Positions 45,963 through 64,000 are shown, counted from the stretch's first letter. The stretch is DNA of 64,000 nt from Gammaproteobacteria bacterium (GCA_051008935.1 JBPCXB010000110.1:6560-70559), one strand, 5' to 3'. Numbers and translations: made by a program. The notes: generated by a model not told the origin, from the letters alone.

Positions 45963-45968
45963 GTTCAG

Positions 45969-46859
45969 ATGAAATGGGTAGGCACCGGCTGGTTTAAAGG
46001 CAAGCAGCCGTTGATAGCACAGTTGCAGTTTGGCTGGGATCGTTTTAAGGAGCTGCTGCAACCTTTGATTACTAACTTAGCGCGAACGGCCAAGTTGGGG
46101 TGGCATCGCTTTAAGGGGTTGCTGCAACCCTTGATCGCCAACTTAACGCGAACGGCCAAGTTGGGGTGGCATCGCTTTAAGGAGCTGCTGCAACGAATCC
46201 CTCCAATTTGGTGGCCTGTAGTGATTGCTTCTGCCATTTTGCATATGGCAGCTGTTAGTTTGTTGGCCGGCGCGTCCGTGCGGACCAATCAGGTTTGGGA
46301 GCCCTTTTCTCCCTACCTAGAGACTATAGATGTACGCATTCTGGCACCAATCCCAGTGGCTGATACAGCGGTTGAGCAGTCAACCACGCCTGTTGCTGAC
46401 GCGGCTGCCTCTGAACCGCCCGCATCGTCTCTGGAGGCTTCGCAATCACAATTACCAGTGCGCACTGAATCAGCAGAATCTTTGATTGAACCTGACATCG
46501 TCGCCGTTGCGCCAGATACTCCCGCTGTGCCGAGCAATCAGCCGGATGGAGAATCTGAGTTACGTCTGCAGGTGGCCGCCGATATCTCCAGAGTCATTAA
46601 AAGCCACTGGAAAGTGCCTTTTAGCGCCGTACGCGGGCTGCGCGCACAAGTAGAAGTACAGCTGAATCGGGAGGGTAAACTGGTGCAGATTGTCTTTGTG
46701 CGCCCTAGCGGCTCTGAGAGCTTTGACGCTTCTATTCTGCGCTCTTTGCGCTTGATCAATAGCTTTCCGGCAGTGGCATTACTTTCAGATGTAAGCTATC
46801 ACAATGACTTTCAGACTATTGTGTTGGTGTTTGATTCAGATGAACGTTTGCGTCTCTGA
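45969..46859 (+). CDS. tolA: Cell-envelope integrity protein TolA, with an atypical 78-aa repeat-containing N-terminal segment before the TM anchor
   Basis: TM helix IWWPVVIASAILHMAAVSLLAGA resembling the E. coli TolA anchor. C-terminal TolA domain (VQLNREGKLVQIVFVRPSGSESFDASIL). Position after tolR. Confidence 0.75.
   Translation: MKWVGTGWFKGKQPLIAQLQFGWDRFKELLQPLITNLARTAKLGWHRFKGLLQPLIANLTRTAKLGWHRFKELLQRIPPIWWPVVIASAILHMAAVSLLAGASVRTNQVWEPFSPYLETIDVRILAPIPVADTAVEQSTTPVADAAASEPPASSLEASQSQLPVRTESAESLIEPDIVAVAPDTPAVPSNQPDGESELRLQVAADISRVIKSHWKVPFSAVRGLRAQVEVQLNREGKLVQIVFVRPSGSESFDASILRSLRLINSFPAVALLSDVSYHNDFQTIVLVFDSDERLRL
46031..46195 (+). repeat. 66-bp (22-aa) in-frame tandem repeat x2.5 at the tolA 5' end (LGWHRFKELLQPLIANLTRTAK units)
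   Basis: Direct repeat visible in the DNA (ggtggcatcgctttaagg...gcgaacggccaagttgg). Confidence 0.85.
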
Positions 46860-46875
46860 GCATCTCCGATTATTA

Positions 46876-48183: not shown

Positions 48184-48460
48184 CAGATTCTTGGCTAGAT
48201 CTGTTTAAGACCCCAGCCTACTGGAGGCGATAGAATATAATGCTATCACAGGTTATAATTCATTTTGCTGTGATTCAGTACCGTGCTGTATATCCAAATT
48301 CTGGGTTTGCGGTCGGTCTGATTTTCTGCAAGGCAGTCAGGAGCGTAATTGCTTCTATACTGAAATACTATGGAATAGCTCATTTCACATAGACCATGTC
48401 AGACTGAAGCCTATCTAATACCGCACTCCAAGAGTTATTAACGCCAAAGAGTTTCACTAA

Positions 48461-49171
48461 ATGTTTGCTACCAATTCTGCTTTTTTCAGATCCAGGCTTA
48501 GGGTTGTTGCTTTGATCCCCCTTGCAGTCATGTTGTCTGCTTGTTGTTTTTCCACGCGAGCTTCTGAGCGTTTTGCTGGTTCTGCAGATGTAATTCCTCT
48601 TCCCGATGGCTTGATTATTGTAGATAGGGGCAATGATAAGTTCGAAGTGTTGTCGGAAGACTCGCCTGAAGGCCAACGGGCTCTCCGGAATCAAGCTGCT
48701 GCGCGCGAGGCGTTGGTAGCAGGTGCGGCTGAAGAGTTGGATCAGGTCGACGATGAAGTGGTCGTTGAACCAGTCGAACAACCTGTTGTAGCTGCTGAAA
48801 TTCCGGATAGGTGGCGGGCTGATTTTGAGCGGTTGGGGTCCTCGTTGTACTTTGACTTTGATGTTTCCACTCTTACTCCCGGCTCCGTTCGCATTCTAAG
48901 AGGCTGGACAGATGCTCTTAAGGAATATCCGCAAGTAGCTGTGACTGTAAACGGTCACACAGATGCTCGGGGACCGCGAGACTACAACTTGTGGCTAGGT
49001 GAGAGGCGTGCCCAGAGTATTGCTGATTTCCTAGAGATTCGAGGCATAGATCAGAAGCGTATCCGTGTTGTGTCCTACGGTGAAGAAGCATTGGCAGTAC
49101 GCGGTAATAGCGACAGGGCTCACGCTTTGAACCGAAGGGTTGAAATGGAGGTGCGTCAGGGCTCCCCCTGA
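48461..49171 (+). CDS. pal: Peptidoglycan-associated lipoprotein (OmpA-family C-domain), longer than canonical Pal
   Basis: Lipobox MLSACC. OmpA_C motif LYFDFDVSTLTP...NGHTDARGPRDYNLWLGERRAQSIADFL. Confidence 0.8.
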   Translation: MFATNSAFFRSRLRVVALIPLAVMLSACCFSTRASERFAGSADVIPLPDGLIIVDRGNDKFEVLSEDSPEGQRALRNQAAAREALVAGAAEELDQVDDEVVVEPVEQPVVAAEIPDRWRADFERLGSSLYFDFDVSTLTPGSVRILRGWTDALKEYPQVAVTVNGHTDARGPRDYNLWLGERRAQSIADFLEIRGIDQKRIRVVSYGEEALAVRGNSDRAHALNRRVEMEVRQGSP

Positions 49172-49238
49172 AGCTGCTGATCGTTCGTACTGAAGTTGTT
49201 GGTCAGAGTTGGGATACAGATTCCCTGACTTGGGTTGT

Positions 49239-50009
49239 ATGAAGCTTCTGCGGGTTTCGTGCTCCAGATGGATGGACATAGACTGGGCAGGTATTGGGCT
49301 CGGCAAGTTATGTCTCTATGCGGCTCTTTTTGTCATGAGTGCTTCTCCGGCGCATGCACAGGTGTTCGATTCGGATCCGGATGGCTCGGAGTCTGAGCAG
49401 ATTATTCGTGCTGTCAGCGAGCAATTACGGCGCATGCGCCAAGAAATAGCAGGTATTCGTTCTGTTGTTCAAGATCAGGAAGATCAGATCAGCCGTCTTG
49501 AGCAGCGCATGAATCAAATTCACATTGAGTTAAGCAGGGAGTTACTGACTTTCAGAGAACAGTTGGCTGGTGATAACGTGGCGCAATCTATAGAATCGCC
49601 AGATACAAGCCTAGGTATCCCTGCATCAGCGGATTTTCGCACGCGTTTGCAGTCGGCTTTGGGTTTTGTGGAATCGGGGCAGACGCGCATTGCGCAGAAT
49701 ATGCTCAGCGAATTGTTATTGCTGGAACCGGAAAATCCCGATGCACCTCTGGCTTGGTATTGGTTGGGCGAAATGCATCTACAGGCGCGTCAATTTCAGG
49801 ATGCAGAGCAGGCCTTCAGTTATCTAATAGCGGTTTATGAAAACCATTGGCGCGTGCCAGCTTCTGCCTTTAAATTGGGAGAAGTGTTTAGGCTGCAAGA
49901 GCAGCAGCAACGTGCCAGAGTACAGTACAGTCGGGTGGTCGAACGCTATCCAGACAGTCCGGCCGCCCGGTTGTCTGCTTTAGCGCTAGATGCTCTTACC
50001 AGCCCTTGA
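49239..50009 (+). CDS. cpoB: Tol-Pal associated periplasmic protein CpoB/YbgF (coiled coil + TPR)
   Basis: Signal peptide. Coiled coil (EDQISRLEQRMNQIHIEL). C-terminal TPR-like region. Position after pal. Confidence 0.75.
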   Translation: MKLLRVSCSRWMDIDWAGIGLGKLCLYAALFVMSASPAHAQVFDSDPDGSESEQIIRAVSEQLRRMRQEIAGIRSVVQDQEDQISRLEQRMNQIHIELSRELLTFREQLAGDNVAQSIESPDTSLGIPASADFRTRLQSALGFVESGQTRIAQNMLSELLLLEPENPDAPLAWYWLGEMHLQARQFQDAEQAFSYLIAVYENHWRVPASAFKLGEVFRLQEQQQRARVQYSRVVERYPDSPAARLSALALDALTSP

Positions 50010-50332: not shown

Positions 50333-53300
50333 ATGAATTCTTTGATTTCTATTTTTTCGGTGCATTCAGTACCTTCGTGGATTGTTAGGCAGTTGAGTCG
50401 GCCTGCTCTTGGGCTGCCTGTAGCGCTCTTGCTGGCTATGGTGATGTCTGTGCCTGCAAAAGCGCAGGCTACCGCTTGCGTGGTGTCAAGCAATGACCAT
50501 TTCTCTACTGTGATTAACAGTAGCGATGCAGCTGTTACCGGTTCAGGATCCGGTGCTGTGACCATCAGTGTCGATGAAGAGGATGCCGCGGTCACACTTG
50601 CAATAGCGGTATCCTTCACCAATCCTGCTAATTGTGATAGTTCTGCGTTGTCAGTTACATATAGCGAGGTAACAGGTACGGACGATGACGGGATCTTTAC
50701 AAATTCCGGAGGCACGATTACGGCTACTCCGCCCACATCTATTGCGAGTGGTGTTGATATTGACTCAACGGTGCAATACACAGTTACTGTTAGTGGGCAT
50801 TCGGACACCGTTACGGCAAATATTAAAGTTGTAGCAGTGAACGATGCGCCGGTGCTTACAGCTCTTGCGGATGAATCAGTAACCGAAGATGGCACTGCCC
50901 TTGCGGTGACTTTGGCACTGACGGATGAAGAAAGTCAGGGTGATTTGTCGGTGTTTGACTACAGCTTCAAAGTGTACGATAGCTCTAATGCGGAAGTTGT
51001 CGGCGATTGGTTTAGCTTTGATTCAAGCACTCAGACTGCCAGCTTCAGCCCTTACCACAGTGATCAGGCGGGGGTGTATAGCGTTGAGGTTGTGATCGTA
51101 GACGGCGCTGGAATTCCCACTCATCAGATCAGCGATTCATTTGCATTAACGGTTGTTAGCGTCAATGACCCTCCTGTTCCTACGGATGTGTTTCTTGCGT
51201 TGCAGGCCTCTGGTCTGATTGAGCATGAGCGCACGCCCGAAGAGGCGAAATCGAATGTGTTGTCTGAGGCGTCAACGTATTTTATGGATGAGGAAGACGG
51301 CGCGGATTTAGATGTGACTGTCAGCATAGATTTTGCCGATGGAGTCGGGGATGGCTTGACCCTTGCGGAATTGGATCTGCTCGACGCCAGTGGAGAGTTA
51401 GGCTTTGTCAACGATAGGCAGGCTGGTAGCTATACGCTTTCCTACACGGCTACTGATAAGGGTACGGGTGCTGCAGATAGTACCGCTCAATCCGATACCG
51501 GCGGGGTATCTTTGGAGCTTTTTGCGGTTAATGATCCTATCACCTCTTCGGACATAACGCCCGTATACAACACGTTCGAAGGTACGCCAGAGGCTGGTAT
51601 TTTGGCTGGTATTTATGATGCTGGTACAGTGGTGGCGACCATACAAGTTGTTGATGAAGAAGGGAGTGCTCTAGACACAAATGGTCAACAGCTGTTGACA
51701 GTTACTCTGGGCGGCGATGGTGGTCTCTTTGAAGCATCTGCTTTGGTTCAGCAGTTGAATGACGCTGGTACAGCCGGAACTGTACGGGATGATTACCACG
51801 ACCTGACGATTGACATCGTAGTTAAAGAAGATGGTACATTGTTGAACCAAGACTATACATTGTCGTATACATTGCACGATGGCTCTTCTTACCCGCCGGA
51901 AATTGCGCAGACTTCGGGAAGTGCATTGGTGGATATTATTGTTGCGCCTTTGGCTGATGCAGGTCGCAAATGGACGGCTTTAAGCGGGGACACAGTAACG
52001 CTCAGCGGCTCCGATAGTGTAGATGTGGAAGGCGATGGCTTGCCTCTGACGTACATTTGGGAGCAGTTAGAAGGCGTGAGTGTGACTCTTTCAGATAATG
52101 CAGTTGTTGCGCCTACTTTCATTGCGCCCGAGGAAGCGGGCAAGCTTGTGTTTAGATTGACGGTTGGCACCGACCCGGCTACGTTGACTGATACGGATCT
52201 CGTATCGGTGTATATTCAGAGTCAGGCGCATCTGGATTTGAATCGCGAAGTGCTGATGCGTCAGTTGGTATTGTTGTCTGGTGATGTGTCTGCGGCAATC
52301 AACCAACGTATGGGCATCGGTTCGGCTGGTCGCAATCTATCGAAAGGGTTTACAACGGCAGATGATGTCTCGCCTGCTTCTGTCTGGCTTCAAGGGTCTT
52401 CTTACGAGATAGAGAGCCGTATTACCTCTTCGGTTCTTAATTGGGATGGAGAGGTCAATGCGCTCCAGTTAGGCGTGGATGCTACCCTAACGACAGCTTT
52501 GGCTGCGGGCATTATTTTGAGTACTTCAGAATCTGATGTGGACTGGAACCACAACGATCAGGAGGGGGCTTATGCCAGCGAGATGAGTATGATAAGCCCG
52601 TGGCTCGGTTTAAGGCTCGGTGCTTTGAAGCTGTGGGCTACCTCAGGTCAAGGAGATATATCCATACAGATTGACCAGCGTATTGATTCTGTTGATCAGC
52701 GTTTTCAAACCACAGGTGATTTAGAAAACGAGGCCTACGGAGCATCTTTGAGTCTTGGCGGTTGGCTGGTGTTCAAATCTGAGCGTCAGGTAAGCGGCTT
52801 CGAAGTGCAGGGTCAGGAACTGTTGGCGGCTGTACCTAAGATAGAGAACGAAGTCAATCGATCGGCAGTGCAGTTTTCTCCAATTATCAAATTAAAGAAC
52901 GGTGGTGTATTTATGCCGGCTTTTGAGGTAGGCACTCGTGAAGAAATATTGACCGAGCCAGGCTCTGATACTACTTACGAAGCATTGGCCCGCGATGGTG
53001 AAGAAACCAGCGTTCGTTTGCACTACAGTTCTGCGGCCAGCGGTATGGTCTTTGAAATGGGTGTTCGTAGCTTTGAATCAGACACGGAGGGTTATTCTGA
53101 GGAAGGAACTTGGATGCTCTGGCAGTATGATCCTGGTTTGGCTGGTCGAGGTGTGGCGGTGAGTTTCAGGCCGTCGGCTGGTCAGCTTGCCAGCAATGCG
53201 AGTCAATTGTGGCAGTACCATGCAACGGGGAATAGCGTCATAGAGGGCTTGACTCAGGGTTATGTACCAGAGAGCTCTGCTGTAGATACTTCGGTTAGTT

Positions 53301-53509
53301 ACGCTTTGCCCATGGGGTCAGGATGGATTGTCAGCCCTCAAACGTCGTACAGAATGGCGAATGGCGAGCGCAGCAATTGGGTTGTTGGCAGCCAATTTGA
53401 ATGGAATCAAACAGTACGGCTGGGGCTTCTAGGCGAGCGTAGATGGCATGATCAATACAACAGGCCGTCGGAAGACAGCATTAAATTACAAGGGACGTTT
53501 AGGTTCTGA
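50333..53509 (+). CDS. Giant surface protein 1: signal peptide, cadherin-like/putative-Ig (VNDxPV) repeats, a PKD-like domain (~51950-52215), and a ~420-aa C-terminal predicted beta-barrel ending ...LQGTFRF. Probably autotransporter-like.
   Basis: Signal peptide MNSLISIFSVHSVPSWIVRQLSRPALGLPVALLLAMVMSVPAKAQA. VAVNDAPVL and SVNDPPVP boundaries. PKD-like LSGDTVTLSGSDSVDVEGDGLPLTYIWEQ...FRLTVGTD. Alternating amphipathic C-terminal strands with a terminal aromatic residue. Confidence 0.7.
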   Translation: MNSLISIFSVHSVPSWIVRQLSRPALGLPVALLLAMVMSVPAKAQATACVVSSNDHFSTVINSSDAAVTGSGSGAVTISVDEEDAAVTLAIAVSFTNPANCDSSALSVTYSEVTGTDDDGIFTNSGGTITATPPTSIASGVDIDSTVQYTVTVSGHSDTVTANIKVVAVNDAPVLTALADESVTEDGTALAVTLALTDEESQGDLSVFDYSFKVYDSSNAEVVGDWFSFDSSTQTASFSPYHSDQAGVYSVEVVIVDGAGIPTHQISDSFALTVVSVNDPPVPTDVFLALQASGLIEHERTPEEAKSNVLSEASTYFMDEEDGADLDVTVSIDFADGVGDGLTLAELDLLDASGELGFVNDRQAGSYTLSYTATDKGTGAADSTAQSDTGGVSLELFAVNDPITSSDITPVYNTFEGTPEAGILAGIYDAGTVVATIQVVDEEGSALDTNGQQLLTVTLGGDGGLFEASALVQQLNDAGTAGTVRDDYHDLTIDIVVKEDGTLLNQDYTLSYTLHDGSSYPPEIAQTSGSALVDIIVAPLADAGRKWTALSGDTVTLSGSDSVDVEGDGLPLTYIWEQLEGVSVTLSDNAVVAPTFIAPEEAGKLVFRLTVGTDPATLTDTDLVSVYIQSQAHLDLNREVLMRQLVLLSGDVSAAINQRMGIGSAGRNLSKGFTTADDVSPASVWLQGSSYEIESRITSSVLNWDGEVNALQLGVDATLTTALAAGIILSTSESDVDWNHNDQEGAYASEMSMISPWLGLRLGALKLWATSGQGDISIQIDQRIDSVDQRFQTTGDLENEAYGASLSLGGWLVFKSERQVSGFEVQGQELLAAVPKIENEVNRSAVQFSPIIKLKNGGVFMPAFEVGTREEILTEPGSDTTYEALARDGEETSVRLHYSSAASGMVFEMGVRSFESDTEGYSEEGTWMLWQYDPGLAGRGVAVSFRPSAGQLASNASQLWQYHATGNSVIEGLTQGYVPESSAVDTSVSYALPMGSGWIVSPQTSYRMANGERSNWVVGSQFEWNQTVRLGLLGERRWHDQYNRPSEDSIKLQGTFRF

Positions 53510-53643: not shown

Positions 53644-56600
53644 ATGATTGCAAAAAATTATAGGCTTAGGTTCCTAGCAGTAACCTGTGTGTCGATACTT
53701 GCCAGCTGGCTGCTCGTTGGTCAGGCGGTAGCACAGAATGCGCCTACTATCAGTTCTATCGAAGATAAGACGGTTCGAGTGGGTCAGTATTACGCTATTG
53801 ATTTGACATCCTATGTTACCGAAATGGATGGGGATGCGGTGTCTTACGACTTAAGCGTCGGCCCTTCTGGGGTTTTGGGTTCGTTTGACGACTTTGCTGC
53901 GAATGTTCTAGGAGATTCCAGTTCGTATTTTGTTGAAAATACGGGCTTGCTGATTGTGAACCTCGGCAGCAATGGTACCGCTGGCTCTAGCGAATTGCAG
54001 TTTTCGGCCACTGATCTAGACGGAACAGCCACTGTTTCTTTCAACTTGATAGTCCAGCCGGAGTTCCTGGCGGATATTTCTAATATGCTGATTAGTTCAG
54101 GTTCGGGTTCACTAGATCTTGCAACATACACGACGGAAGATGACATAACATGGGACGCAACTGAGGTAGGTTCGACAACTCTTCCAACGGGATTTAGCTT
54201 GTCAGGTTCGACTCTTAGCTACTCTGGGTTGGCAGCTGGCAGTAACCACGATTTGGCAGTTACAGCGACCTTAACTCTTTCAGACACTGTCTATACCGAT
54301 ACGAGCGCTTTTCGCATTACCGTTGCATCTGCTACGGGCGTGTCATCCACCCTCATAGAGGATTTGGAAATATTGGAAGATGCGACAACCAACCTGCAGC
54401 TTTCTGATTACTTTTCATCTGCTGACACCCTTAGCTATACAGTGGTCGAGCAGGGCACATCGAGCCTGCCTGCAGGCATAACCTTGACAGGCTCTGTGCT
54501 GGAACTGTTGGTTGAATCGTTAGAGGTTGCTACTTCTTATAACTTGCAGGCGACTGCCAGTACTAGCACGGAGTCGGCCTCGCTAGATTTCACGGTAACC
54601 TTTGTACCTATCAATGATGCTCCCGAATTTGCAGGTCCTATCGCGCAACAGACGGTCGCATTGGGCAGCTCTGCTACATTAGATGTCAGCGGTTATTTTT
54701 CAGATGAAGAATCGGATCCATTGACCTTTGAGGCCACACAAGTAGGCGGCACGGCCTTGCCTTCTTGGATCACGCTGGCTGCATCTACGGGTATCTTTAC
54801 TTTTGCACCAAGCGCAAGTGACAATATCAGCACCGAGGTGTTCAGTATTGAGGTTATAGCCAGCGATTTTGGGTTGGACGCTGCCGCTAGCTTTAATCTT
54901 GCAGTTTCGCTTCCACCAGTACTTAGCACTTTGATTCCTGAGAAGAGTGTGGGTGTAGGTGAAACGCTGGTGTTAGAACTGTCGGGTTTCTTTACCAGTA
55001 GCCAAACTTTGAGTTATTCTTTCTCCAGTACGCCTTCGGCATCTTGGATGAGCATCGATGCGACGACTGGTGCGATGGAGTTTGCGCCTACCAGCTCTTC
55101 GGACATTGCTGACTATACAGTTACCGCAACTGCAACTACGCCTGCCTCGCTGTCGGCCAGTGATACCTTTGTGCTGAGCGTTCTTTCCACTCAGTCCCCA
55201 GAAGTTGCTAGTGATGCTTTGACTGCGCATAGTGTCGCTGTCACGGCCATCAGCACTATTGATGCTTCCGCCATTTTTAGCGATCCAGAAGGACTCGTAT
55301 TAACTTATGCAACTGCGGTATCGGGCCAAGATTTTTCATCTTGGATTAGCATAGACTCCAGCTCCGGACTTATTACGCTGGCTCCCACACAGGCAGCGCT
55401 AGCTGGTAATAGCTACACGCTGACAGTCACTGCTACCAATGCTTCTAATTTGTCGACAGATCATGACATTACCCTTAGTGTTTCTGCCAACACGGCTCCT
55501 ACAGTCGCTACGACTCTTGCGGATGTCAGTTTATCAGGCACTTCGCAGGCTTATATTATTAATGGGTTCAGTAGTTTCTTTGCAGATGCTGAAGAAGCTA
55601 CTAGAGGAGCTGACGGCGAGCTGGATGTTGCGGTAGAACTGACCGCTCTTAATGACGCTGGGGATACAGATGACGAGGTTTTGGATATTGCCGTCATCTC
55701 GTGGTTTACGGTTGCGGGAGACGTCATCACCGTCGCTCCCAGCAACAATCTGGTGGGTACGTATCGCATAAAGCTGACAGCAGAAGATTCCGGAGGCTTG
55801 ACAGGGGAGCAGGCTTTTGACCTTGAAATAACCTTCGCTAATGTGGCGCCTGCGGTCGTAGCAAATAATGATGTCTCTAACTCGACGTACACGATAATTG
55901 TTGGAGCTTCACAAGAAGTAGATATATCTGGCGTCTTTTCGGATGCGGACGGCGACGCCTTGACCTTGACGGCAGATCAGAGCGATGGCACGGCGTTGCC
56001 TGCTTGGGTTGTGTTTGATGCTGCTGAACTGACGGTGACAGCCGAGCCAACCAGCTCGGCAGATATTGGCGACATTACCGTACGGCTTACTGCTAGTGAT
56101 GGAACTCTTTCTATTAGTACCACTTTTGATATCACGGTATTAGCTGCGAATATGCAGCCTACGCTTGTATCTGCGCTCAGTGATCAACAGGTAGACGAAG
56201 ATTCTGTGCTCTCTACAACCTCTGTGAAGGTCAATTTCTCTGACCCAGAGGGTATTTCCCTTAATTTGTCTGCTGCATTGTCTGATGGCAATGCGCTGCC
56301 GAGCTTTATCACCTTTACAGCATCGACAGGTGTGTTCAGATTTGCGCCTACTCTGACCAGCGAAGCTGACACTTACAGTATTGAGGTGACTGCTTCGGAT
56401 GGTGCGTTGAGTGTCAGCGATACCTTTGATCTGACAGTGACTGCAGTCGATGACACTCCGATTGTTGCAGTTGTTATTGCCGATCAGTCAGCCACCGAAG
56501 ATGCAACAGCAGAGACTCTTGATGTGTCCTCCAACTTTAGCGATGAAGAGACCAGCACTCTGACGCTGTCGGCGGCATTAGCTAATGGCAATGCTCTGCC

Positions 56601-59337
56601 GAGCTTTATCACCTTTACAGCATCGACAGGTATGTTCAGCTTTGCGCCCACCCTGAGCAGTCAGGCCGGTACTTACAGCATTGAAGTGACTGCTTCAGAT
56701 GGCGCGTTGAGTATCAGCGACACCTTTGATCTGACCGTGTCTGCAGTCAATGACAGTCCAGTTTTCAGTGGGCCTATTCCCATGCAGGTTGTTGAAGCTG
56801 GCACGACGGGAACTTTGAGTGTAACGCAATATTTCCAAGATGAAGAATCACAATCTCTGACCTTTTCGACGAGTGTCGGAGGTGTTGGGTCTGGAGACCC
56901 TGCGTTTCCAAGCTTCATTACGTTCACCGCCGCAACTGGTGCATTCAGCTTTTCGCCTACGCAAGCTGAACGATCAATGGCGTTTACCGTTACGGTCCAG
57001 GCGACTGATGAAGGCAATAAAAGCGCGATGGGTACGTTTACGTTGACGGTAGGTGACGAAGATTCTCCTCCCGTTCTAGTTGGTGGTGGCATAGAGGATA
57101 CGGAGGCATTTGAAGACGCTGTTACCACTTTTGATATCGCTAGTAGCTTTACGGATCCCGCCGGCGACGCGCTGACTTTTACATCGACATTGGCTGATGG
57201 CGTTGCTCTGCCAGCTTTTGTCACTCTCTCGGGCTCTGAATTCACATTCGCACCTACTTTGAGCATTCAAGCTGGTATTTACAGTATTGAGGTGACTGCT
57301 TCAGACAATAGCAGCAGTGTCAGCGATATCTTTGATTTGATTGTGACACCAGTCAACGATGCCCCGATTGCGGCCGTCAGCGTCATGCCGGCTAATGGCA
57401 TACCGGATCAGGTATACACGGAAGATGATCCGGCCATCGTCATAGCGTTATCTGATTATTTCAGTGATGAAGAAGATAACGATAATCTCGCTTATGCGAT
57501 TGAACGTGTGGAATTAGATACAGTCACTGATCTTTATGTAGGTACCGGTGTGATACCGCCTTGGGCTGTTGTCGATAACACTGCCAATACTCTGACCATT
57601 GAGTTGTTGCTGAGCAATACTGGTGCTGCGACTGGTGAATTTCAGATTACGGCAACGGATTCAGGGGGTTTGGAAGCAGAAGATATCTTCAAGATTACGT
57701 TGGATGAACGTAACGACCCACCCAGCTTGCTTTTTGCGATTATTGACCAAGAAATTCCCGTAGATACTGAAACCGTTTTTTCGGTGGGTGGGTTTTTTGT
57801 TGATGAAGAATCTGACAGCTTGAGTTTCTCTGCAACCCTGGATGGTTCGTCCCTACCTGACTGGATCGATTTGGCAATTGGCGGGCGCTTTACATTCAAC
57901 CCGACGACTGCCAACGAGGGTACTTATACCATTAGCGTGACAGCTACAGACAGTACGCTAAGTGTCACGGATGAATTCGAATTGACTGTTCTGCCAGCCC
58001 CTGCACTTGCACAGGATGTGTGGGAAAGTACCTTAGGGCAGCAATTCAGCATGATCAATACCAGCGTAGCTGATTCGATTGGCGGCAGAATGTCGCGTAT
58101 TGGATCTGTAAAACGCGCAGATTCCAATACTGTAGCTCTCATGCTCTCTCAGTATGCTGGATCGGATCGTCAAGGCAATCTCCGGCAACTTCTGAATGGC
58201 AAAACCCTTGGCTATCAATTAGGGTCTTCCTACAGTTCTCAGGCAACAGGCACTGGCGCTAGTTCGATCTGGTTGACCAGTAATAGTAGGACATTGGAAC
58301 AGACAGGTGCTTCAAGCTGGGAGGCAGACCTCTCTGACATGGTTGTTGGTTTCGATACCCGAGTCGGTAGTTCGCTGGTGATTGGGCTGGTCTATGTCAA
58401 TTCTTCTGGTGATTATGCCGTTGCTGCAAGCGGCGGTTCAAACGCCTTTCAATACACCAATGATGTGACCAGTACGCATCCTTGGGTAGGCCTGTCGGCT
58501 GGTAACCTTAACCTGTGGGTTTCGGCAGGAGAAGGGGATGGCACGCTTGAAATAGATGATGGCAATTCTTCTGTGTTGACTACGGATGTAGCGCTCAGCT
58601 CGGTTCAGTTCGGTCTGGAGTTCTCGGTTGCCGAATGGCTAGCATTGAGTTTGACGAATTCCAGTAGCGATTTTTCATCAGAAGCGGTGGGTAATATTCA
58701 ACGAATGGAGTCCAGTCTGGATGAAATGCGGGTTGCGATTAATGCCAAATACAGCTTTAAGGTCGGAAGTAGTGTGTTAACTCCTAAGCTAATTATTGCT
58801 AGCCGTGATCAAAGCATCGGTGAATCTGACGGCGAGTTGAGTGATCCAGCCCATTCAGGCACAGAGATGGGTTTTGACATCGATCTTCGCACAGCATCAG
58901 GTTTGGGATTGGCATTAGGTAGCCGTTCATTTTCATCAGATACAGAAGGCTATGACGAAACAGGTAGTTTCTTTGCCCTGAGTTTTGATTTCGGCGTACC
59001 TAATCGCGGTTTTATCTTTGAACTGAAGCCATCGTATGGGCATACAGATAGCAGAAGCCAAGAGCTTGTAGATGGCTTTTACAAGCCTCAAGTTGATTCT
59101 TTGGGTCGCCAATCTAAGCTGTCGGCCGAAATTTCTTATCCCACAGCACTTGGCTCGGCTTGGCTGGTCAGCCCTTATGTCAGCTTTGATCGCAGTAGCG
59201 CCGACAGCCAGTCGAGGATTTCAGGTGTGCGCTTCGGCTTTACCCGTGCCATTGATCTGGCATTTTCGCACCGCGAACGCCAATCTCTCTTGGGAACTGA
59301 GCAATCTGTTGAATTGCAAGGACGTTTGAGCTTCTAA
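53644..59337 (+). CDS. Giant surface protein 2 (1897 aa): signal peptide, ~15 cadherin-like/CADG-type repeats, and a ~440-aa C-terminal predicted beta-barrel ending ...LQGRLSF, paralogous to protein 1
   Basis: Repeated ALPSFITFTASTG.F.FAPT...YSIEVTASDG.LS.SDTFDLTV.AVND.P units. C-terminal domain alignable with protein 1 (QDVWESTLGQQFSM... vs ASVWLQGSSYEIES...). Confidence 0.75.
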   Translation: MIAKNYRLRFLAVTCVSILASWLLVGQAVAQNAPTISSIEDKTVRVGQYYAIDLTSYVTEMDGDAVSYDLSVGPSGVLGSFDDFAANVLGDSSSYFVENTGLLIVNLGSNGTAGSSELQFSATDLDGTATVSFNLIVQPEFLADISNMLISSGSGSLDLATYTTEDDITWDATEVGSTTLPTGFSLSGSTLSYSGLAAGSNHDLAVTATLTLSDTVYTDTSAFRITVASATGVSSTLIEDLEILEDATTNLQLSDYFSSADTLSYTVVEQGTSSLPAGITLTGSVLELLVESLEVATSYNLQATASTSTESASLDFTVTFVPINDAPEFAGPIAQQTVALGSSATLDVSGYFSDEESDPLTFEATQVGGTALPSWITLAASTGIFTFAPSASDNISTEVFSIEVIASDFGLDAAASFNLAVSLPPVLSTLIPEKSVGVGETLVLELSGFFTSSQTLSYSFSSTPSASWMSIDATTGAMEFAPTSSSDIADYTVTATATTPASLSASDTFVLSVLSTQSPEVASDALTAHSVAVTAISTIDASAIFSDPEGLVLTYATAVSGQDFSSWISIDSSSGLITLAPTQAALAGNSYTLTVTATNASNLSTDHDITLSVSANTAPTVATTLADVSLSGTSQAYIINGFSSFFADAEEATRGADGELDVAVELTALNDAGDTDDEVLDIAVISWFTVAGDVITVAPSNNLVGTYRIKLTAEDSGGLTGEQAFDLEITFANVAPAVVANNDVSNSTYTIIVGASQEVDISGVFSDADGDALTLTADQSDGTALPAWVVFDAAELTVTAEPTSSADIGDITVRLTASDGTLSISTTFDITVLAANMQPTLVSALSDQQVDEDSVLSTTSVKVNFSDPEGISLNLSAALSDGNALPSFITFTASTGVFRFAPTLTSEADTYSIEVTASDGALSVSDTFDLTVTAVDDTPIVAVVIADQSATEDATAETLDVSSNFSDEETSTLTLSAALANGNALPSFITFTASTGMFSFAPTLSSQAGTYSIEVTASDGALSISDTFDLTVSAVNDSPVFSGPIPMQVVEAGTTGTLSVTQYFQDEESQSLTFSTSVGGVGSGDPAFPSFITFTAATGAFSFSPTQAERSMAFTVTVQATDEGNKSAMGTFTLTVGDEDSPPVLVGGGIEDTEAFEDAVTTFDIASSFTDPAGDALTFTSTLADGVALPAFVTLSGSEFTFAPTLSIQAGIYSIEVTASDNSSSVSDIFDLIVTPVNDAPIAAVSVMPANGIPDQVYTEDDPAIVIALSDYFSDEEDNDNLAYAIERVELDTVTDLYVGTGVIPPWAVVDNTANTLTIELLLSNTGAATGEFQITATDSGGLEAEDIFKITLDERNDPPSLLFAIIDQEIPVDTETVFSVGGFFVDEESDSLSFSATLDGSSLPDWIDLAIGGRFTFNPTTANEGTYTISVTATDSTLSVTDEFELTVLPAPALAQDVWESTLGQQFSMINTSVADSIGGRMSRIGSVKRADSNTVALMLSQYAGSDRQGNLRQLLNGKTLGYQLGSSYSSQATGTGASSIWLTSNSRTLEQTGASSWEADLSDMVVGFDTRVGSSLVIGLVYVNSSGDYAVAASGGSNAFQYTNDVTSTHPWVGLSAGNLNLWVSAGEGDGTLEIDDGNSSVLTTDVALSSVQFGLEFSVAEWLALSLTNSSSDFSSEAVGNIQRMESSLDEMRVAINAKYSFKVGSSVLTPKLIIASRDQSIGESDGELSDPAHSGTEMGFDIDLRTASGLGLALGSRSFSSDTEGYDETGSFFALSFDFGVPNRGFIFELKPSYGHTDSRSQELVDGFYKPQVDSLGRQSKLSAEISYPTALGSAWLVSPYVSFDRSSADSQSRISGVRFGFTRAIDLAFSHRERQSLLGTEQSVELQGRLSF

Positions 59338-59710: not shown

Positions 59711-60025
59711 TCAATCAGGTGCGCTATTTGTAGCCTTTTCTTGATGCTCTCGCCAAGATTTAAAGCCACCTATCATGCTGGCAACATCGGTAAATCCATG
59801 GCTCTCTAGCTGAGCAGTCATGGGTTGGCTGGAATAGCCAAGATAGCAGTACACGACCGTTGGTAGCTCGGGGTCTAGCCCTGAGATGCCTGCAGCATCT
59901 TCAATCAATATGGCCCCTGGGATTCTGTCTTGCTCCCAGTCGACCCGATTGCGTATATCGATTACCTGAAGGGGATCATCACCCTGCAGGTGTTGTATGA
60001 GTTGTAGAACGGTAATTTCACGCAT
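59711..60025 (-). CDS. Single-domain rhodanese-like sulfurtransferase (GlpE-like)
   Basis: LQVIDIRNRVDWEQDRIPGAILIE...VVYCYLGYSSQ (active-site Cys loop). Confidence 0.75.
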   Translation of the reverse strand: MREITVLQLIQHLQGDDPLQVIDIRNRVDWEQDRIPGAILIEDAAGISGLDPELPTVVYCYLGYSSQPMTAQLESHGFTDVASMIGGFKSWREHQEKATNSAPD

Positions 60026-60091: not shown

Positions 60092-60120
60092 TTGACAAGA
60101 TGGTTTAAAAAATTAATATA
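60092..60120 (+). promoter_or_regulatory. Candidate sigma70 promoter for surface-protein gene 3 (TTGACA-N17-AATATA), with an AAGGA RBS 6 nt before the ATG
   Basis: cctaTTGACAagatggtttaaaaaattAATATAgat in an AT-rich spacer. Confidence 0.3.
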
Positions 60121-60141: not shown

Positions 60142-63100
60142 ATGGCTTTCATGCAAATTATTTCAGCTTTCAAATTCATTTTCACAGCGGTCCGTGTGCT
60201 GGCAACTGCTGCGGTATTTACACTAATTGTAGCTTTTGCGCCCAACGCATACGCTGCTGACCCTGAAATCGTCGGGTCGGGTATCGCAGATCAGTCGGTC
60301 ACTGAAGATGCAACAGCGGCAGTGCTAGATGTAGCTGGGTCTTTTACGGATCCTGATGGCGATACTCTGACTTTTGCAGCAACTTTGGATGATGGAGATG
60401 ATGATAACGATCTACCAAGCTTCATCACCTTTTCAGGATCGGAATTCACATTTACACCGACTCTGAGCTCTGAAGCCGGCGTGCACAGTATCAAGGTGAC
60501 TGCTTCGGACGCTGGCCGTAGCGTCAGCGATACCTTTGATCTGACGGTGGCCGCAGTCAATGACAATCCGGTTGTCGTTACATCCATTGCAGATCTCTCT
60601 GCTGCTGAAGACGCGACCACTACCTTGAATGTGTCTTCCAACTTTAGCGATGAGGAGACCGTCGCTCTGATGGCCACGGCTGCACTGTCTGATGGCAGTG
60701 CGCTTCCAGGGTTTATCACCTTTACAGCAATGACAGGCGAATTCAGCTTTGCACCCACTCTGACTACTGAGGCGGGTACTTACAGCATTGAGGTAACTGT
60801 TTCGGACGGTACGCTAAGTATCAGCGATACCTTTACTCTGACGGTGACCGCAGTCAACGATACTCCAGTTGTTGCTACAGTTATTGCCGATCAGTCGGTC
60901 ACTGAAGATGCAACACCAGCGTCACTTGATGTATCCTCCAACTTCAGCGATGAAGAGACCAGCGCTCTGACGCTGTCGGCGGCATTGGCTGATAGCACTG
61001 CGCTGCCGAGCTTTGTTACCTTTACAGCATCGACAGGCATGTTCAGCTTTGAGCCTACTCTGACTAGTGAGGCGGGTAGTTACAGCATTGAGGTGACCGC
61101 TTCGGACGGTGCGTTGAGTGTCAGCGATACATTTGATCTGACAGTGGCCGCAGTCAACGACAATCCGGTTGTTGCAACAGCTATTGCGAGTTTAGCTGCA
61201 CCAGAAGACGAGACCACAACCTTGGATGTGTCCTCCAACTTTAGCGATGAGGAGACCAGTCCTCTGACGCTGTCGGCTGCATTGTCTGATGGCAGTGCGT
61301 TGCCGGGCTTTGCCACCTTTACAGCATCAACAGGTACGTTCAGCTTTGAGCCGGTTGCTGCGGATATCGGTACTTACAGCATTGAGGTGACCGCTTCAGA
61401 CGGCGCACTGAGTATCAGCGATACCTTTGATGTGACTGTGGCCGCCGTCAACGCTAGTCCGGTTGTTGCTACAGTCATTCCCGACCAATCGGCCACTGAA
61501 GATGCAACAGTGGTAGCACTAGATGTGGCTGGGTCTTTTTCGGACCCTGATGGCGATACTCTGATTTTTGCAGCAACTTTGGATGACGGAGATGAGGATA
61601 ACGATCTGCCAAGCTTTGTCACCTTTACCGCATCGACAGGCGAATTCAGCTTTGCACCCACACTGACTAGTGAGGCTGATACCTATAGCATTAAGGTGAC
61701 CGCTTCAGATGGCGCGTTGAGTGTCAGCGATACCTTTGATCTGGTAGTGATCGCAGTCAACGACAATCCGGTTGTTGCTACAGCCATTGGGGATCAGTCA
61801 GCCAGTGAAGACGCGACCACAACCTTGGATGTGTCTTCCAACTTTAGCGATGAAGAGACCAGTTCTCTGACGCTGTCGGCGGCCTTGTCTGATAGCAGTG
61901 CGCTGCCGAGCTTTGCCACCTTTACCGCATCGACAGGTATGTTCAGCTTTGCACCCACTCTGACTAGTGAGGCCGGTACTTACAGTATTGAGGTAACCGC
62001 TTCAGACGGCACACTAAGTATCAGCGATACCTTTACTCTGACAGTGGCAGCAGTCAACGACAATCCGGTTGTTGCAACAGCCATTGCAGATACCGCTGCA
62101 CCTGAAGACGCGACCACAACCTTGGAAGTGTCCTCCAACTTCAGCGATGAAGAGACCAGCGCTCTGACGCTGTCAGCGGCATTGTCTGATAGCAGCGCGC
62201 TGCCGAGCTTTGTCACTTTTACCGCATCGACAGGTGTGTTTAGTGTCGCACCGACTCTGACTAGTGATGCGGGTACTTATAGCATTGAAGTGACGGCTTC
62301 GGACGGTGCGTTGAGTATCAGCGATACCTTTGATCTGACAGTGACTGCCGTCAATGACAATCCGGTTGTTGCGACAGCCATTGGGGATGTCGCTGCACCG
62401 GAAGACGCGACCACCGCCTTGGATGTGTCCTCCAACTTTAGCGATGAAGAGACCAATTCTCTGACGCTGTCGGCGGCATTGTCTGATAGCAGTGCGCTGC
62501 CGAGCTTTGCCACCTTTACCGCATCGACAGGTATGTTCAGCTTTGAGCCTGTTGCTGCGGATATCGGCACCTACAGTATTAAAGTGACCGCTTCAGACGG
62601 CGTGCTAAGTATCAGTGATACCTTTGATGTGACGGTGGGCGCCGTCAACGATACTCCGGTTGTTGTTACAGTGATTCCCGATCAATCGGCCACTGAAGAT
62701 GCAACAGCAGCGACTCTTGATGTGTCTGATAACTTTAGCGATGAAGAGACCAGCGTTCTCACGCTGTCGGCGGCATTGGCTGATAGCAGTGCGCTGCCAA
62801 GTTTTGTCACCTTTACAGCATCGACAGGTGTGTTCAGCTTTGCACCCACGCTGAGCAGCCAAGCAGATACTTACAGCATTGAGGTGACAGCTTCGGACGG
62901 TGCCCTGAGTGTCAGTGATACCTTTGATCTGACGGTGCACGCAGTCAACGACAATCCAGTTGTTGCAACAGCCATTGGGGATGTCGCTGCGCCTGAAGAC
63001 GAGACCACTGCCTTGGATGTGTCTGCTAGCTTTAGCGATGAAGAGACCAATTCTCTGACACTGTCGGCGGCATTGTCCGATAGCAGTGCGCTGCCAAGCT

Positions 63101-64000
63101 TTGCCACCTTTACCGCATCGACAGGTATGTTCAGCTTTGAGCCTGCTGCTGCGGATATCGGCACCTACAGTATTGAGGTGACCGCTTCGGACGGTGTGCT
63201 AAGTATCAGCGATATCTTTGATGTGACGGTGGGCGCCGTCAATGACAATCCGGTTGTTGTTACAGCCATTCCAGATTTCACTGCAGTTGAAGACGAGATC
63301 GCAACCTTTGATGTGTCTGATAGCTTCAGCGATGAAGAGACCAGCGCTCTGACGCTGTCGGCCGCATTGTCCGATAGCAGTGCGCTGCCGAGTTTTGTCA
63401 CCTTTACAGCATCGACAGGTATGTTCAGCTTTGCACCCACTCTAACTAGTGAGGCGGGCACTTACAGCATTGAGGTGACCGCTTCGGACGGTGCGCTGAG
63501 TGTCAGTGATACCTTTGATGTGACAGTGCACGCAGTCAATGACAATCCGGTTGTTGCTACAGCCATTTCCGATGTCGCTGCTCCGGAAGACGAGACCACA
63601 ACCTTGGATGTGTCTGCCAACTTTAGCGATGAAGAGACCAATTCTCTGACACTGTCGGCGGCATTGTCCGATGGCAATGCACTGCCGAGCTTTGTCACCT
63701 TTACTGCATCGACAGGTGCGTTTAGCTTTGAGCCTGTTGCTGCGGATATCGGCACCCACAGTATTGAGGTGACTGCTTCGGACGGTGTGCTGAGTATCAG
63801 CGATACCTTTGATGTGGTGGTGGGCGCCGTCAATGACAATCCGGTTGTTGCTACAGCCATTGCAGATACCGCTGCACCTGAAGACGAGACCACAACCTTG
63901 GATGTGTCTTCCAACTTTACCGATGAAGAGACCAGCGTTCTGACGTTGTCGGCCGCATTGTCCGATAGCACTGCGCTCCCGAGCTTTATCACCTTTACAG
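60142..64000 (+). CDS. Giant surface protein 3 (3'-truncated by the window, more than 1286 aa): long signal peptide followed by 12 or more near-identical 100-aa cadherin-like/CADG-type repeats. Not in the supplied ORF track because there is no stop in the window.
   Basis: Translated by hand from ATG 60142: MAFMQIISAFKFIFTAVRVLATAAVFTLIVAFAPNAYA|ADPEIV..., then repeats of ...VNDNPVVATAI.D.AAPEDATTTLDVSSNFSDEETS.LTLSAALSDSSALPSFVTFTASTGMFSFAPTLTSEAGTYSIEVTASDGALSISDTFDLTV.A.... The frame stays open to position 64000. Confidence 0.8.
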   Translation, partial: MAFMQIISAFKFIFTAVRVLATAAVFTLIVAFAPNAYAADPEIVGSGIADQSVTEDATAAVLDVAGSFTDPDGDTLTFAATLDDGDDDNDLPSFITFSGSEFTFTPTLSSEAGVHSIKVTASDAGRSVSDTFDLTVAAVNDNPVVVTSIADLSAAEDATTTLNVSSNFSDEETVALMATAALSDGSALPGFITFTAMTGEFSFAPTLTTEAGTYSIEVTVSDGTLSISDTFTLTVTAVNDTPVVATVIADQSVTEDATPASLDVSSNFSDEETSALTLSAALADSTALPSFVTFTASTGMFSFEPTLTSEAGSYSIEVTASDGALSVSDTFDLTVAAVNDNPVVATAIASLAAPEDETTTLDVSSNFSDEETSPLTLSAALSDGSALPGFATFTASTGTFSFEPVAADIGTYSIEVTASDGALSISDTFDVTVAAVNASPVVATVIPDQSATEDATVVALDVAGSFSDPDGDTLIFAATLDDGDEDNDLPSFVTFTASTGEFSFAPTLTSEADTYSIKVTASDGALSVSDTFDLVVIAVNDNPVVATAIGDQSASEDATTTLDVSSNFSDEETSSLTLSAALSDSSALPSFATFTASTGMFSFAPTLTSEAGTYSIEVTASDGTLSISDTFTLTVAAVNDNPVVATAIADTAAPEDATTTLEVSSNFSDEETSALTLSAALSDSSALPSFVTFTASTGVFSVAPTLTSDAGTYSIEVTASDGALSISDTFDLTVTAVNDNPVVATAIGDVAAPEDATTALDVSSNFSDEETNSLTLSAALSDSSALPSFATFTASTGMFSFEPVAADIGTYSIKVTASDGVLSISDTFDVTVGAVNDTPVVVTVIPDQSATEDATAATLDVSDNFSDEETSVLTLSAALADSSALPSFVTFTASTGVFSFAPTLSSQADTYSIEVTASDGALSVSDTFDLTVHAVNDNPVVATAIGDVAAPEDETTALDVSASFSDEETNSLTLSAALSDSSALPSFATFTASTGMFSFEPAAADIGTYSIEVTASDGVLSISDIFDVTVGAVNDNPVVVTAIPDFTAVEDEIATFDVSDSFSDEETSALTLSAALSDSSALPSFVTFTASTGMFSFAPTLTSEAGTYSIEVTASDGALSVSDTFDVTVHAVNDNPVVATAISDVAAPEDETTTLDVSANFSDEETNSLTLSAALSDGNALPSFVTFTASTGAFSFEPVAADIGTHSIEVTASDGVLSISDTFDVVVGAVNDNPVVATAIADTAAPEDETTTLDVSSNFTDEETSVLTLSAALSDSTALPSFITFT
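60250..64000 (+). repeat. Tandem array of 300-bp coding repeats (period exactly 300 bp, 12 or more copies) within gene 3
   Basis: The gcagtcaa(c/t)gacaatccggttgtt landmark recurs at 60553, 60853, 61153, 61453 ... 63841. Confidence 0.85.

What the first reader, a model, noticed from the sequence alone, without database searches (positions are those of the whole stretch)
60250..64000. Near-identical 300-bp tandem coding repeats in gene 3, sharing units with gene 2: a recombination and size-variation hotspot
Gene 3 contains 12 or more consecutive 300-bp units that differ at only a few positions, for example VNDNPVV vs VNDTPVV and ATAIAD vs ATVIPD. Two units of the same family sit in the middle of gene 2 (about 56161-57360), for example ALPSFITFTASTGMFSFAPTLSSQAGTYSIEVTASDGALSISDTFDLTVSAVND. 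Such arrays expand and contract by slipped or unequal recombination, and they permit gene conversion between paralogues. This could vary adhesin length or antigenicity. They are also prone to assembly collapse, so the true copy number may differ from what is shown.
Basis: seen in the sequence. Interest (0 to 1): 0.65.

Follow-up and report, generated by a model that had tools for sequence, protein, structure and literature searches.

The report
Diverged cadherin-like repeat array in adhesin
Gene 3 encodes a giant bacterial surface protein made of at least 22 cadherin-like 99-residue domains in a row; the repeats are real, but they are only about 80% alike, so this is an ordinary old repeat array and not a demonstrated hotspot of length variation.

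Summary
The tandem array is real. It runs from 60256 to the window end in the + frame of a gene that starts at 60142. There are 12 full units and one cut unit. The period is 297 bp (98-103 codons), not 300. The units are not near-identical. Pairwise DNA identity is 67-93% (mean 80%) and protein identity is 58-94% (mean 76%). Synonymous divergence averages 0.54 (minimum 0.22). The longest exact repeat is 67 nt.

Each unit is a He_PIG, cadherin-like beta-sandwich with a conserved VNDNP linker motif that aligns in register with solved cadherins. The deposited protein (MGI9345366.1, from a Gammaproteobacteria MAG) has 22 units and is cut off by the contig end.

Gene 2 does carry a roughly 500-bp tract of gene-3 type (56267-56766, 78-83% identity) with a sharp breakpoint inside a unit. 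This is an old inter-paralogue transfer. Genes 1 and 2 end in a divergent autotransporter beta-domain.

The array grew by tandem duplication, most recently in two-unit (594-bp) steps, and is under purifying selection (dN/dS 0.26). Variation in copy number between strains could not be tested because no relatives were found. I read it as a new member of a known kind (fibrillar or Periscope-like adhesins), of low interest.

The parts
60142..64000 (+). Gene 3, 5' part. It is 1286 codons long in the window and open to the window end. It equals NCBI MGI9345366.1, which is 2183 aa, partial, and cut by the contig end.
   Evidence: The open frame is shown. Pfam He_PIG scores 369 bits in 12 stretches. 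NCBIfam tandem-95 repeat scores 269.9 bits against a cutoff of 90. A 100% identical database protein, P0001, was found.
60142..60255 (+). Predicted Sec signal peptide (MAFMQIISAFKFIFTAVRVLATAAVFTLIVAFAPNAYA|ADPE).
   Evidence: Read from the sequence: a hydrophobic core followed by an A-x-A site. No predictor was run.
60092..60119 (+). Promoter-like site, TTGACA-16-TAATAT, 23 nt upstream of the start codon. An AAGGA Shine-Dalgarno-like motif lies about 5 nt before the ATG.
   Evidence: Consensus scan and sequence reading. This is a consensus match only.
60256..64000 (+). Tandem array of cadherin-like (He_PIG) units u0-u12, with a 297-bp period. Subtypes: 99 aa (A), 98 aa (B, with FEPVAADIG), 100 aa (T, with VNDTP...TEDATxxxL), and 103 aa (D, with DPDGDTL...DDGDEDND).
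   Evidence: The AlphaFold2 model of u5-u6 has pLDDT 92.1 and shows two 7-stranded beta-sandwiches.
62347..64000 (+). Two-unit (594-bp) super-repeat zone. Units u7-u12 alternate subtype B with subtypes T or A. In the deposited protein the pattern continues to u14.
   Evidence: Identity at a lag of two units is 86-93% nt, against 78-83% at a lag of one. Exact repeats are spaced 591-594 nt apart. u11/u13 are 97% aa identical and u12/u14 are 95%.
61885..61951 (+). Longest exact repeat in the visible array (67 nt). Its second copy is at 62479-62545 (u5/u7). It is a candidate gene-conversion tract.
   Evidence: Sawyer-type permutation test gives p = 0.0002 over 55 pairs.
53644..59337 (+). Gene 2 (1897 aa; NCBI MGI9345364.1 uses a start 15 codons later). 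It has a signal peptide, diverged He_PIG units and a C-terminal autotransporter-like beta-domain.
56267..56766 (+). Gene-3-type tract inside gene 2. It covers the 3' part of unit g2A, all of g2B, and 24 nt of g2C.
   Evidence: blastn gives 78-83% identity to gene-3 unit pairs. The best protein match to P0001 is 83%, at aa 1566-1731.
57052..57348 (+). Gene-2 unit g2D, the counterpart of gene-3 units u0 and u4 (subtype with DPxGDxLTF and SGSEFTF).
   Evidence: blastn of 57148-57359 against 60343-60563 gives 71% identity. Alignment.
57964..59337 (+). Gene 2 C-terminal beta-domain. It is a divergent autotransporter translocator and ends ...LQGRLSF.
   Evidence: PF03797 scores 32.7 bits (gathering threshold 26) when this region is scanned alone, and 10 of 14 family members hit it. 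There are 261 relatives, always at the C-terminus.
50333..53509 (+). Gene 1 (NCBI MGI9345363.1, 1058 aa). It has cadherin-like and PKD units and the same C-terminal beta-domain.

Best explanation
Gene 3 encodes a very large, Sec-exported cell-surface protein.

What it is made of:
- Its exported part is a chain of at least 22 cadherin-like (He_PIG) beta-sandwich domains of about 99 residues each.
- The domains are joined by conserved acidic linker motifs (xEDxT, FSDEE, TASDG, VNDNP).
- By analogy with cadherins and with bacterial Ca2+-dependent adhesins, these motifs bind Ca2+ and stiffen the chain. The result would be a rod of about 100 nm that acts as a stalk and/or a multivalent adhesive surface.
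- By analogy with the two upstream paralogues, it is probably anchored by a C-terminal autotransporter-type barrel. That end lies beyond the contig.

How the array evolved:
- The 297-bp array grew by tandem duplication, most recently in two-unit (594-bp) steps.
- Units occasionally exchanged segments, including a roughly 500-bp tract now found in gene 2.
- Since then the copies have diverged to about 80% DNA identity under purifying selection.
- The visible array is therefore a relic of past expansion. It should now be fairly stable, with only the youngest blocks (u11-u14, which straddle the window end) still likely to recombine.

Shown here: the repeat anatomy, the fold, the motif register, the divergence, the mosaic breakpoints, and the autotransporter domain in genes 1 and 2.
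Inferred: Ca2+ binding, surface location, adhesion, low present-day instability, and the anchor of gene 3.
For: - Array and unit table.
- Family assignment: He_PIG 369 bits and tandem-95 repeat 269.9 bits.
- A profile built from unit pairs hits solved protocadherin gamma-A9, CELSR1 and EP-cadherin (E down to 1.6e-8). The TASDG...VNDNP...ED motifs align with the cadherin D-x-G...D-x-N-D-N-x-P...P-E-N motifs.
- The AF2 model of two units has pLDDT 92.1. Its top fold matches are the tandem Ig/cadherin-like domains of the fucoidanase MfFcnA4, dystroglycan, titin and protocadherin-15.
- Mean dS is 0.54, mean dN is 0.14, and the linker motifs are the most constrained part (dN/dS 0.05-0.12).
- Exact repeats are no longer than 67 nt and are mostly spaced an even number of units apart.
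- The 22-unit protein has u11/u13 at 97% aa identity.
- Mosaic tests.
- Units are more alike within a protein than between proteins across the family.
- The gene 2 beta-domain scores above the PF03797 threshold and is homologous to the gene 1 C-terminus.
- Literature: Ca2+ in the linkers rigidifies tandem cadherin-like extender domains in bacterial adhesins (PMC12153261). Recombination-driven length variation is tied to high DNA identity (PMC8201768).
Against: - No experimental or comparative data exist for this protein. The closest other protein is only 43-48% identical.
- The C-terminus of gene 3 is missing, so its anchor is unknown.
- There is no distinct N-terminal ligand-binding domain, so a 'stalk' role is not obvious.
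- Adjacent-unit protein identity (55-91%) is still far above the under-50% said to be typical of multidomain proteins (PMC8201768). Some ongoing homogenisation therefore cannot be excluded.
- DNA beyond 64000, where the most similar blocks lie, could not be examined.
Confidence: 0.7

Rival explanations
1. One reading: the array is a currently active hotspot, in the Periscope-Protein style. Slipped or unequal recombination between units frequently changes protein length, and gene conversion with gene 2 varies antigenicity.
For: - It is a tandem array of folded domains longer than 50 aa.
- Parts of it meet the 80% protein-identity screen used for Periscope Proteins: u5-u7 at 81-87%, u14-u17 at 83-91%, u11/u13 at 97% (criterion from PMC8201768).
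- There are mosaic tracts and a chimeric gene-2 unit.
- Unit identity is higher within a protein than between proteins.
Against: - Mean DNA identity is 80%, the minimum dS is 0.22, and the longest exact match is 67 nt.
- By established knowledge, homologous recombination needs roughly 25 bp or more of identity and falls by orders of magnitude at 10-20% divergence (Shen & Huang 1986; Rayssiguier 1989; Vulic 1997; my own knowledge, not checked here).
- The gene-2 tract is 17-22% diverged from every visible gene-3 unit, so the transfer is old.
- No window of the unit has dN/dS above 0.5.
- A relative in the same domain family (P0019) shows what a truly near-identical array looks like: median 97% identity between adjacent units.
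Confidence: 0.2
2. Assembly artefact: the array, or its copy number, results from mis-assembly of a metagenome bin, either by collapse or by chimeric joining of strain variants.
For: - The source is a MAG contig of 73,250 bp, and gene 3 is cut by the contig end.
- The 95-97% identical two-unit blocks just past the window could have been collapsed.
Against: - Every visible unit is distinguishable. Exact repeats are no longer than 67 nt, which is shorter than usual reads or the largest assembly k-mers.
- The frame stays open for 2183 codons with intact domain motifs in every unit.
- The contig ends in a diverged unit (u21), not in the homogeneous part.
Confidence: 0.07
3. Functional diversification: the units have diverged because each binds a different ligand, making this a multi-specific lectin or adhesin and not a passive rod.
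For: - The variable segments are concentrated in two patches of the unit (codons 11-30 and 76-85).
- There is no separate N-terminal binding domain.
- Bacterial cadherin-like domains are reported to bind carbohydrate and to mediate Ca2+-dependent interactions (cited in PMC12153261).
Against: dN/dS in the variable patches is still 0.3-0.4, so there is no positive selection. Four recurring subtypes fit duplication history better than unit-by-unit specialisation.
Confidence: 0.15

Closest known systems
Periscope Proteins (variable-length surface proteins such as SasG, Rib, Sgo_0707 and CdrA; Whelan et al. 2021, PMC8201768)
   Same: Both are tandem arrays of folded domains of about 100 residues that form a rod on a surface protein. 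Adjacent-domain identity is well above the under-50% typical of multidomain proteins. In both, the array was built by intragenic duplication.
   Different: Periscope arrays were screened at 80% protein identity or more, and the strongest length variation is seen at the highest DNA identity. Here the mean is 76% aa and 80% nt. No length variation has been observed, because no relatives are available. There is no distinct distal binding domain, and the anchor of gene 3 has not been seen.
Fibrillar adhesins with He_PIG (PF05345), tandem-95 (NF012211) or bacterial cadherin-like stalk domains (for example CabC/CabD of Saccharophagus degradans, SiiE, LapA-type RTX adhesins, BapP; PMC12153261, PMC9210967)
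   Same: The domain family is the same (scores above the curated cutoffs). Both have acidic Ca2+-type linker motifs, giant size, and a Gram-negative, gammaproteobacterial setting.
   Different: Most characterised Gram-negative examples are T1SS/RTX substrates without a Sec signal peptide. Gene 3 has an N-terminal signal peptide, and its neighbours carry an autotransporter-type C-terminal barrel instead of RTX repeats.
Eukaryotic cadherin and protocadherin ectodomains, and dystroglycan
   Same: The repeat length is similar (about 100-110 aa), the fold is a beta-sandwich, and the linker motifs D-x-G / D-x-N-D-N-x-P / x-E-x align in register. Dystroglycan is among the top fold matches.
   Different: The host is bacterial, and there is no transmembrane or cytoplasmic region. 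Sequence identity is low (E around 1e-8 at the profile level only), and Ca2+ binding has not been tested.
Classical type Va autotransporter adhesins (Ag43, AIDA-I, pertactin)
   Same: Genes 1 and 2 have a signal peptide, a passenger, and a C-terminal PF03797-type beta-domain that ends in an aromatic residue.
   Different: The passenger is a chain of Ig/cadherin-like domains, not a beta-helix. The C-terminal domain is about 450 aa and matches only part of the Pfam model, at 32.7 bits. No sequence relative has a solved structure. For gene 3 this end is not available.

Membership tests
Pfam He_PIG (PF05345) / NCBIfam tandem-95 repeat (NF012211) | Profile score above the curated cutoff, with repeated matches | tested here: met
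   Gene 3 scores He_PIG 369.4 bits (cutoff 24) in 12 stretches, and tand_rpt_95 269.9 bits (cutoff 90) in 12 stretches. Gene 2 scores He_PIG 235.5 bits but tand_rpt_95 only 77 bits, below the cutoff of 90.
Cadherin-like repeat | Beta-sandwich of about 100 residues with conserved inter-domain acidic motifs, including D-x-N-D-N-x-P, in register with solved cadherins | tested here: met
   The unit-pair profile hits 5szn, 8vy2 and 1l3w (E 1.6e-8 to 7e-7) with the motifs aligned. The AF2 model has pLDDT 92 and seven strands per unit. D33, D85, E19, D20 and N201 are invariant or nearly so.
Cadherin-like repeat | Ca2+ binding at the linkers and Ca2+-dependent rigidity | not testable with these tools
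   Inferred from the motifs and from the literature (PMC12153261).
Periscope Proteins | [quoted passage not shown] | tested here: inconclusive
   Units are 98-103 aa. Adjacent-unit identity is 55-91%. In-window pairs average 76%. Some stretches pass (u5-u7, u14-u17) and most adjacent pairs (70-76%) do not.
Periscope Proteins | Repeat number differs between closely related strains | not testable with these tools
   No related contig or genome was found. The protein cluster has a single member.
Periscope Proteins | High DNA identity between repeats, as the substrate for intragenic recombination | tested here: not met
   Within the window, identity is 67-93% nt (mean 80%), the longest exact repeat is 67 nt, and dS is 0.22-0.9. 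DNA of the closer u11-u14 blocks is not available.
Type Va autotransporter | C-terminal PF03797 beta-domain | tested here: inconclusive
   Met for gene 2 (32.7 bits against 26 when the C-terminal 457 aa are scanned alone; 10 of 14 relatives hit). Met for gene 1 by homology. For gene 3 the C-terminus lies beyond the contig end.
Type Va autotransporter | N-terminal Sec signal peptide | tested here: met
   Read from the sequence of genes 2 and 3. No dedicated predictor was run.
T1SS RTX (LapA-like) adhesin | No Sec signal peptide; C-terminal RTX nonapeptide repeats (PF00353) and a secretion signal | tested here: not met
   Genes 2 and 3 start with signal peptides. There is no PF00353 hit in gene 2 or in the visible part of gene 3. 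The C-terminus of gene 3 has not been seen.

The most novel reading that the evidence does not exclude
The three adjacent genes would represent an under-described class of autotransporter-like surface proteins. Their passenger would be a Ca2+-stiffened chain of cadherin-like domains instead of a beta-helix, carried by an unusually large (about 450 aa) and divergent C-terminal barrel. This barrel family has 261 representatives and no relative with a solved structure. The paralogues would exchange repeat blocks. The A/B alternation of unit subtypes would be a selected compromise: adjacent domains stay dissimilar enough to fold, while a 594-bp register is preserved for length change.
Probability: 0.2. 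Interest if true: 0.45.

Novelty: new member of a known kind. Interest (0 to 1): 0.2.

Why it matters
The evidence instead shows an ordinary repeat-rich surface protein whose repeats are old.

It has some use in three ways:
- It is a worked example that 'repetitive' does not mean 'recombinogenic'.
- It is a caution for MAG annotation, because the gene is truncated at the contig end.
- It is a pointer to a cluster of autotransporter-like proteins with cadherin-like passengers in an unsampled gammaproteobacterial lineage.

It answers no long-standing question.

Tried and rejected
- Exact-product look-ups of gene 2, P0001 and P0027 to fetch DNA beyond the window all returned 'not on record'.
- Scans of genome contigs and metagenome contigs with the unique gene-2 C-terminal domain found no relative.
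- A genome-contig scan with Pal found only unrelated Bacteroidota OmpA-family hits. No strain or species comparison was therefore possible.
- The search for homologous proteins with the gene-2 C-terminus returned nothing, not even the protein itself. The word index was swamped. The exhaustive HMMER search replaced it.
- Single-sequence AlphaFold2 of that domain failed (pLDDT 33) and was not used.
- A profile of that domain found no relative among PDB sequences.
- Rfam and terminator scans of the 804-bp gap upstream of gene 3 gave nothing credible. There is no c-di-GMP riboswitch.
- Collinearity of the gene-3 tail with gene 2, tried as a way to infer the missing C-terminus, was ambiguous.
- The first Sawyer-type test was inflated by two very divergent sequences. 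It was redone on a conservative set.
- Minus-strand ORFs inside the array (for example 63462-63992) were rejected as by-products. The + frame carries the domain hits and stays open for 2183 codons.
Full report
**1. The observation**

Tandem Repeats Finder reports a single array in the region, at 60494-64000. It has a period of 297, 11.8 copies, 77% matches and a score of 3646.

The + frame is open from an ATG at 60142 to the window end. After a signal-peptide-like N-terminus (MAFMQ...APNAYA|ADPE), the protein splits cleanly at the recurring AVNDxP motif. This gives units u0 (60256-60552) to u11 (63532-63825) and a truncated u12. Each unit is 98-103 codons.

The description 'near-identical' is not correct:
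- Pairwise nucleotide identity of full units is 67-93%, mean 80%.
- Protein identity is 58-94%, mean 76%.
- Nei-Gojobori synonymous divergence among the ten core units averages 0.54, with a minimum of 0.22 for u9/u11. dN averages 0.14.
- The longest exact repeat in the visible array is 67 nt (61885/62479). Only 20 exact repeats reach 30 nt.

**2. Shared units with gene 2**

blastn shows that gene 2 nt 56266-56766 matches every gene-3 unit pair at 73-83% identity. It also shows that 57148-57360 matches at 71-74%, best to u0.

The first tract does not respect unit boundaries. Unit g2A differs from gene-3 units at 58% of sites to the left of about 56267 and at 15% to the right. The maximum chi-square is 59-66 (p < 0.0005), against 4-17 for control pairs within gene 3. 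The tract ends 24 nt into the next unit.

This is the footprint of a transfer or conversion of about 1.7 units between the paralogues. It is old:
- The best DNA match is 83%.
- The best protein match anywhere in the 2183-aa deposited gene 3 is 83%.
- dS between g2B and its closest gene-3 unit is 0.49.
- The longest exact match between the two genes is 37 nt.

**3. What the units are**

Gene 3 scores 369 bits on Pfam He_PIG in 12 stretches. It also hits Cadherin_4, Cadherin_5 and Big_9. It scores 269.9 bits on NCBIfam 'tandem-95 repeat' against a cutoff of 90.

A profile built from 14 unit pairs finds solved eukaryotic cadherins by sequence alone: protocadherin gamma-A9 (E 1.6e-8), CELSR1 and EP-cadherin. 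The segment TASDG...LTVxAVNDNPVV...xED aligns to the cadherin D-x-G...D-x-N-D-N-x-P...P-E-N segment that spans the inter-domain linker.

AlphaFold2 on u5-u6 gives pLDDT 92.1 and two seven-stranded sandwiches. Foldseek's best PDB matches are as follows:
- the tandem Ig/cadherin-like domains of the marine fucoidanase MfFcnA4 (24% identity)
- dystroglycan
- titin
- protocadherin-15

The linker motifs are the most constrained part of the unit (dN/dS 0.05-0.12). No 10-codon window exceeds 0.49.

The literature describes tandem cadherin-like domains in bacterial adhesins (SiiE, CabC/D, LapA, BapP). In these, Ca2+ bound in the linkers rigidifies the extender (PMC12153261). Ca2+ binding here is inferred, not tested.

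**4. The whole gene and its neighbours**

The database holds an identical protein, MGI9345366.1. It is annotated 'MAG: putative Ig domain-containing protein, partial [Gammaproteobacteria bacterium]', is 2183 aa long, and sits on a 73,250-bp contig.

It has 22 units. Units u1-u17 are the homogeneous family and u18-u21 are diverged. The contig ends inside u21.

Units fall into four recurring subtypes. From u7 to u14 a 98-aa subtype alternates with 99- or 100-aa subtypes. Identity at a lag of two units (83-97% aa) exceeds adjacent identity (70-76%). Exact DNA repeats are mostly spaced 2, 4 or 8 units apart. The most recent growth was therefore by 594-bp two-unit blocks. The youngest blocks (u11-12 and u13-14, 95-97% aa) straddle the window end.

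Upstream lie aspS, yebC, ruvCAB and tolQRAB-pal-cpoB. Next come gene 1 and gene 2. Both end in a homologous C-terminal domain of about 400-450 aa (26% identity, E 9e-35; both end in Phe).

Scanned alone, the gene-2 domain reaches the Pfam Autotransporter gathering score (32.7 against 26 bits), as do 10 of 14 relatives. An exhaustive HMMER search finds 261 relatives, always at the C-terminus of proteins of 416-5859 aa that carry He_PIG, PKD, LRR or SWM passengers.

Genes 1 and 2 are therefore autotransporter-like surface proteins with Ig-like passengers. Gene 3 probably is too, but its C-terminus has not been seen. A rhodanese gene on the minus strand (59711-60025) separates gene 2 from gene 3. 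Gene 3 has its own promoter-like site.

**5. Mechanism and the hotspot claim**

In the ten closest proteins, units are always more alike within a protein (medians 57-94%) than between proteins (best 45-56% to gene 3). Lineage-specific expansion and homogenisation are therefore general in this family, and gene 3 sits mid-range. One relative, P0019, shows what a truly near-identical array looks like (median 97% between adjacent units).

Inside gene 3, one tract (u5/u7) survives Bonferroni correction in a Sawyer-type test (p = 0.0002). A gene-2/gene-3 tract is only suggestive (p = 0.0018 over 55 pairs). Recombination has shaped the array.

However, divergence is about 20% and identical runs are 67 nt or shorter. 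Established recombination genetics (a minimal processing segment of about 25 bp, and a steep fall with divergence; my own knowledge) therefore predicts low present-day rates in the visible part.

The Periscope Protein study screened for 80% protein identity or more. It found the largest length variation at the highest DNA identity (PMC8201768). Gene 3 is at or below that margin.

Nothing supports antigenic diversification. Copy-number variation among strains could not be tested. Look-ups and scans found no related sequence.

**6. Verdict**

The array and the shared units are real, but the units are not near-identical and the period is 297.

Duplication and inter-paralogue exchange did occur historically. 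An active hotspot is neither shown nor likely for the visible part.

The object is a new member of a known kind: a fibrillar, Periscope-like adhesin built from He_PIG, cadherin-like repeats, already annotated as such in NCBI. Interest is low. The most unusual aspect, noted in passing, is the autotransporter-like anchoring of cadherin-like chains in a three-gene paralogous cluster.

Noticed in passing
window 57964-59337 (gene 2) and about 52376-53509 (gene 1): Both genes end in a homologous domain of about 400-450 aa that only marginally matches the Pfam Autotransporter model (32.7 bits against a threshold of 26). The domain has 261 relatives among 1.84 billion representatives. These are always C-terminal and sit on proteins with He_PIG, PKD, LRR or SWM passengers. 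No sequence relative has a solved structure. It may be an under-described barrel type that carries Ig-like chains.
   Followed up: partly
window 59711-60025 (-): A 104-aa rhodanese-domain gene (PF00581, 52 bits) lies on the opposite strand between gene 2 and gene 3. The two adhesin genes are therefore not one operon. The gap in NCBI accession numbers (MGI9345365.1) suggests this gene is annotated.
   Followed up: yes
window 60256-60552 (u0), 61444-61752 (u4), 57052-57348 (g2D): A distinct unit subtype has the middle segment FxDPDGDTLxF...DDGDxDND, an extra acidic insert. Unit u4 has core-family ends around this middle and so looks mosaic. Gene 2 carries the counterpart unit. The insert might be an additional Ca2+ site.
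   Followed up: partly
window 40053-50009: A conserved housekeeping block (aspS, yebC, ruvC/A/B, tolQ-tolR-tolA-tolB-pal-cpoB) lies immediately before the three surface-protein genes. GC content (0.49-0.53) does not change across the junction, so there is no compositional sign of a recently acquired island.
   Followed up: partly
P0019 (ENA metagenome protein, 1772 aa): This He_PIG protein has a T9SS-type C-terminal tail and about ten units that are 97-100% identical. It is a much better candidate for recombination-driven length variation than the window's gene 3.
   Followed up: no
window 62605-62940, 63442-63759, 63462-63992 (-): Long minus-strand ORFs lie inside the array. They recur because the repeat lacks stop codons in an antisense frame. 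They are very probably not genes.
   Followed up: partly
tool behaviour: The word-indexed protein search returned nothing for the Ser/Gly-rich gene-2 C-terminus, even though the identical protein (P0027) is in the database. Negative results from that tool should not be trusted for low-complexity queries.
   Followed up: yes
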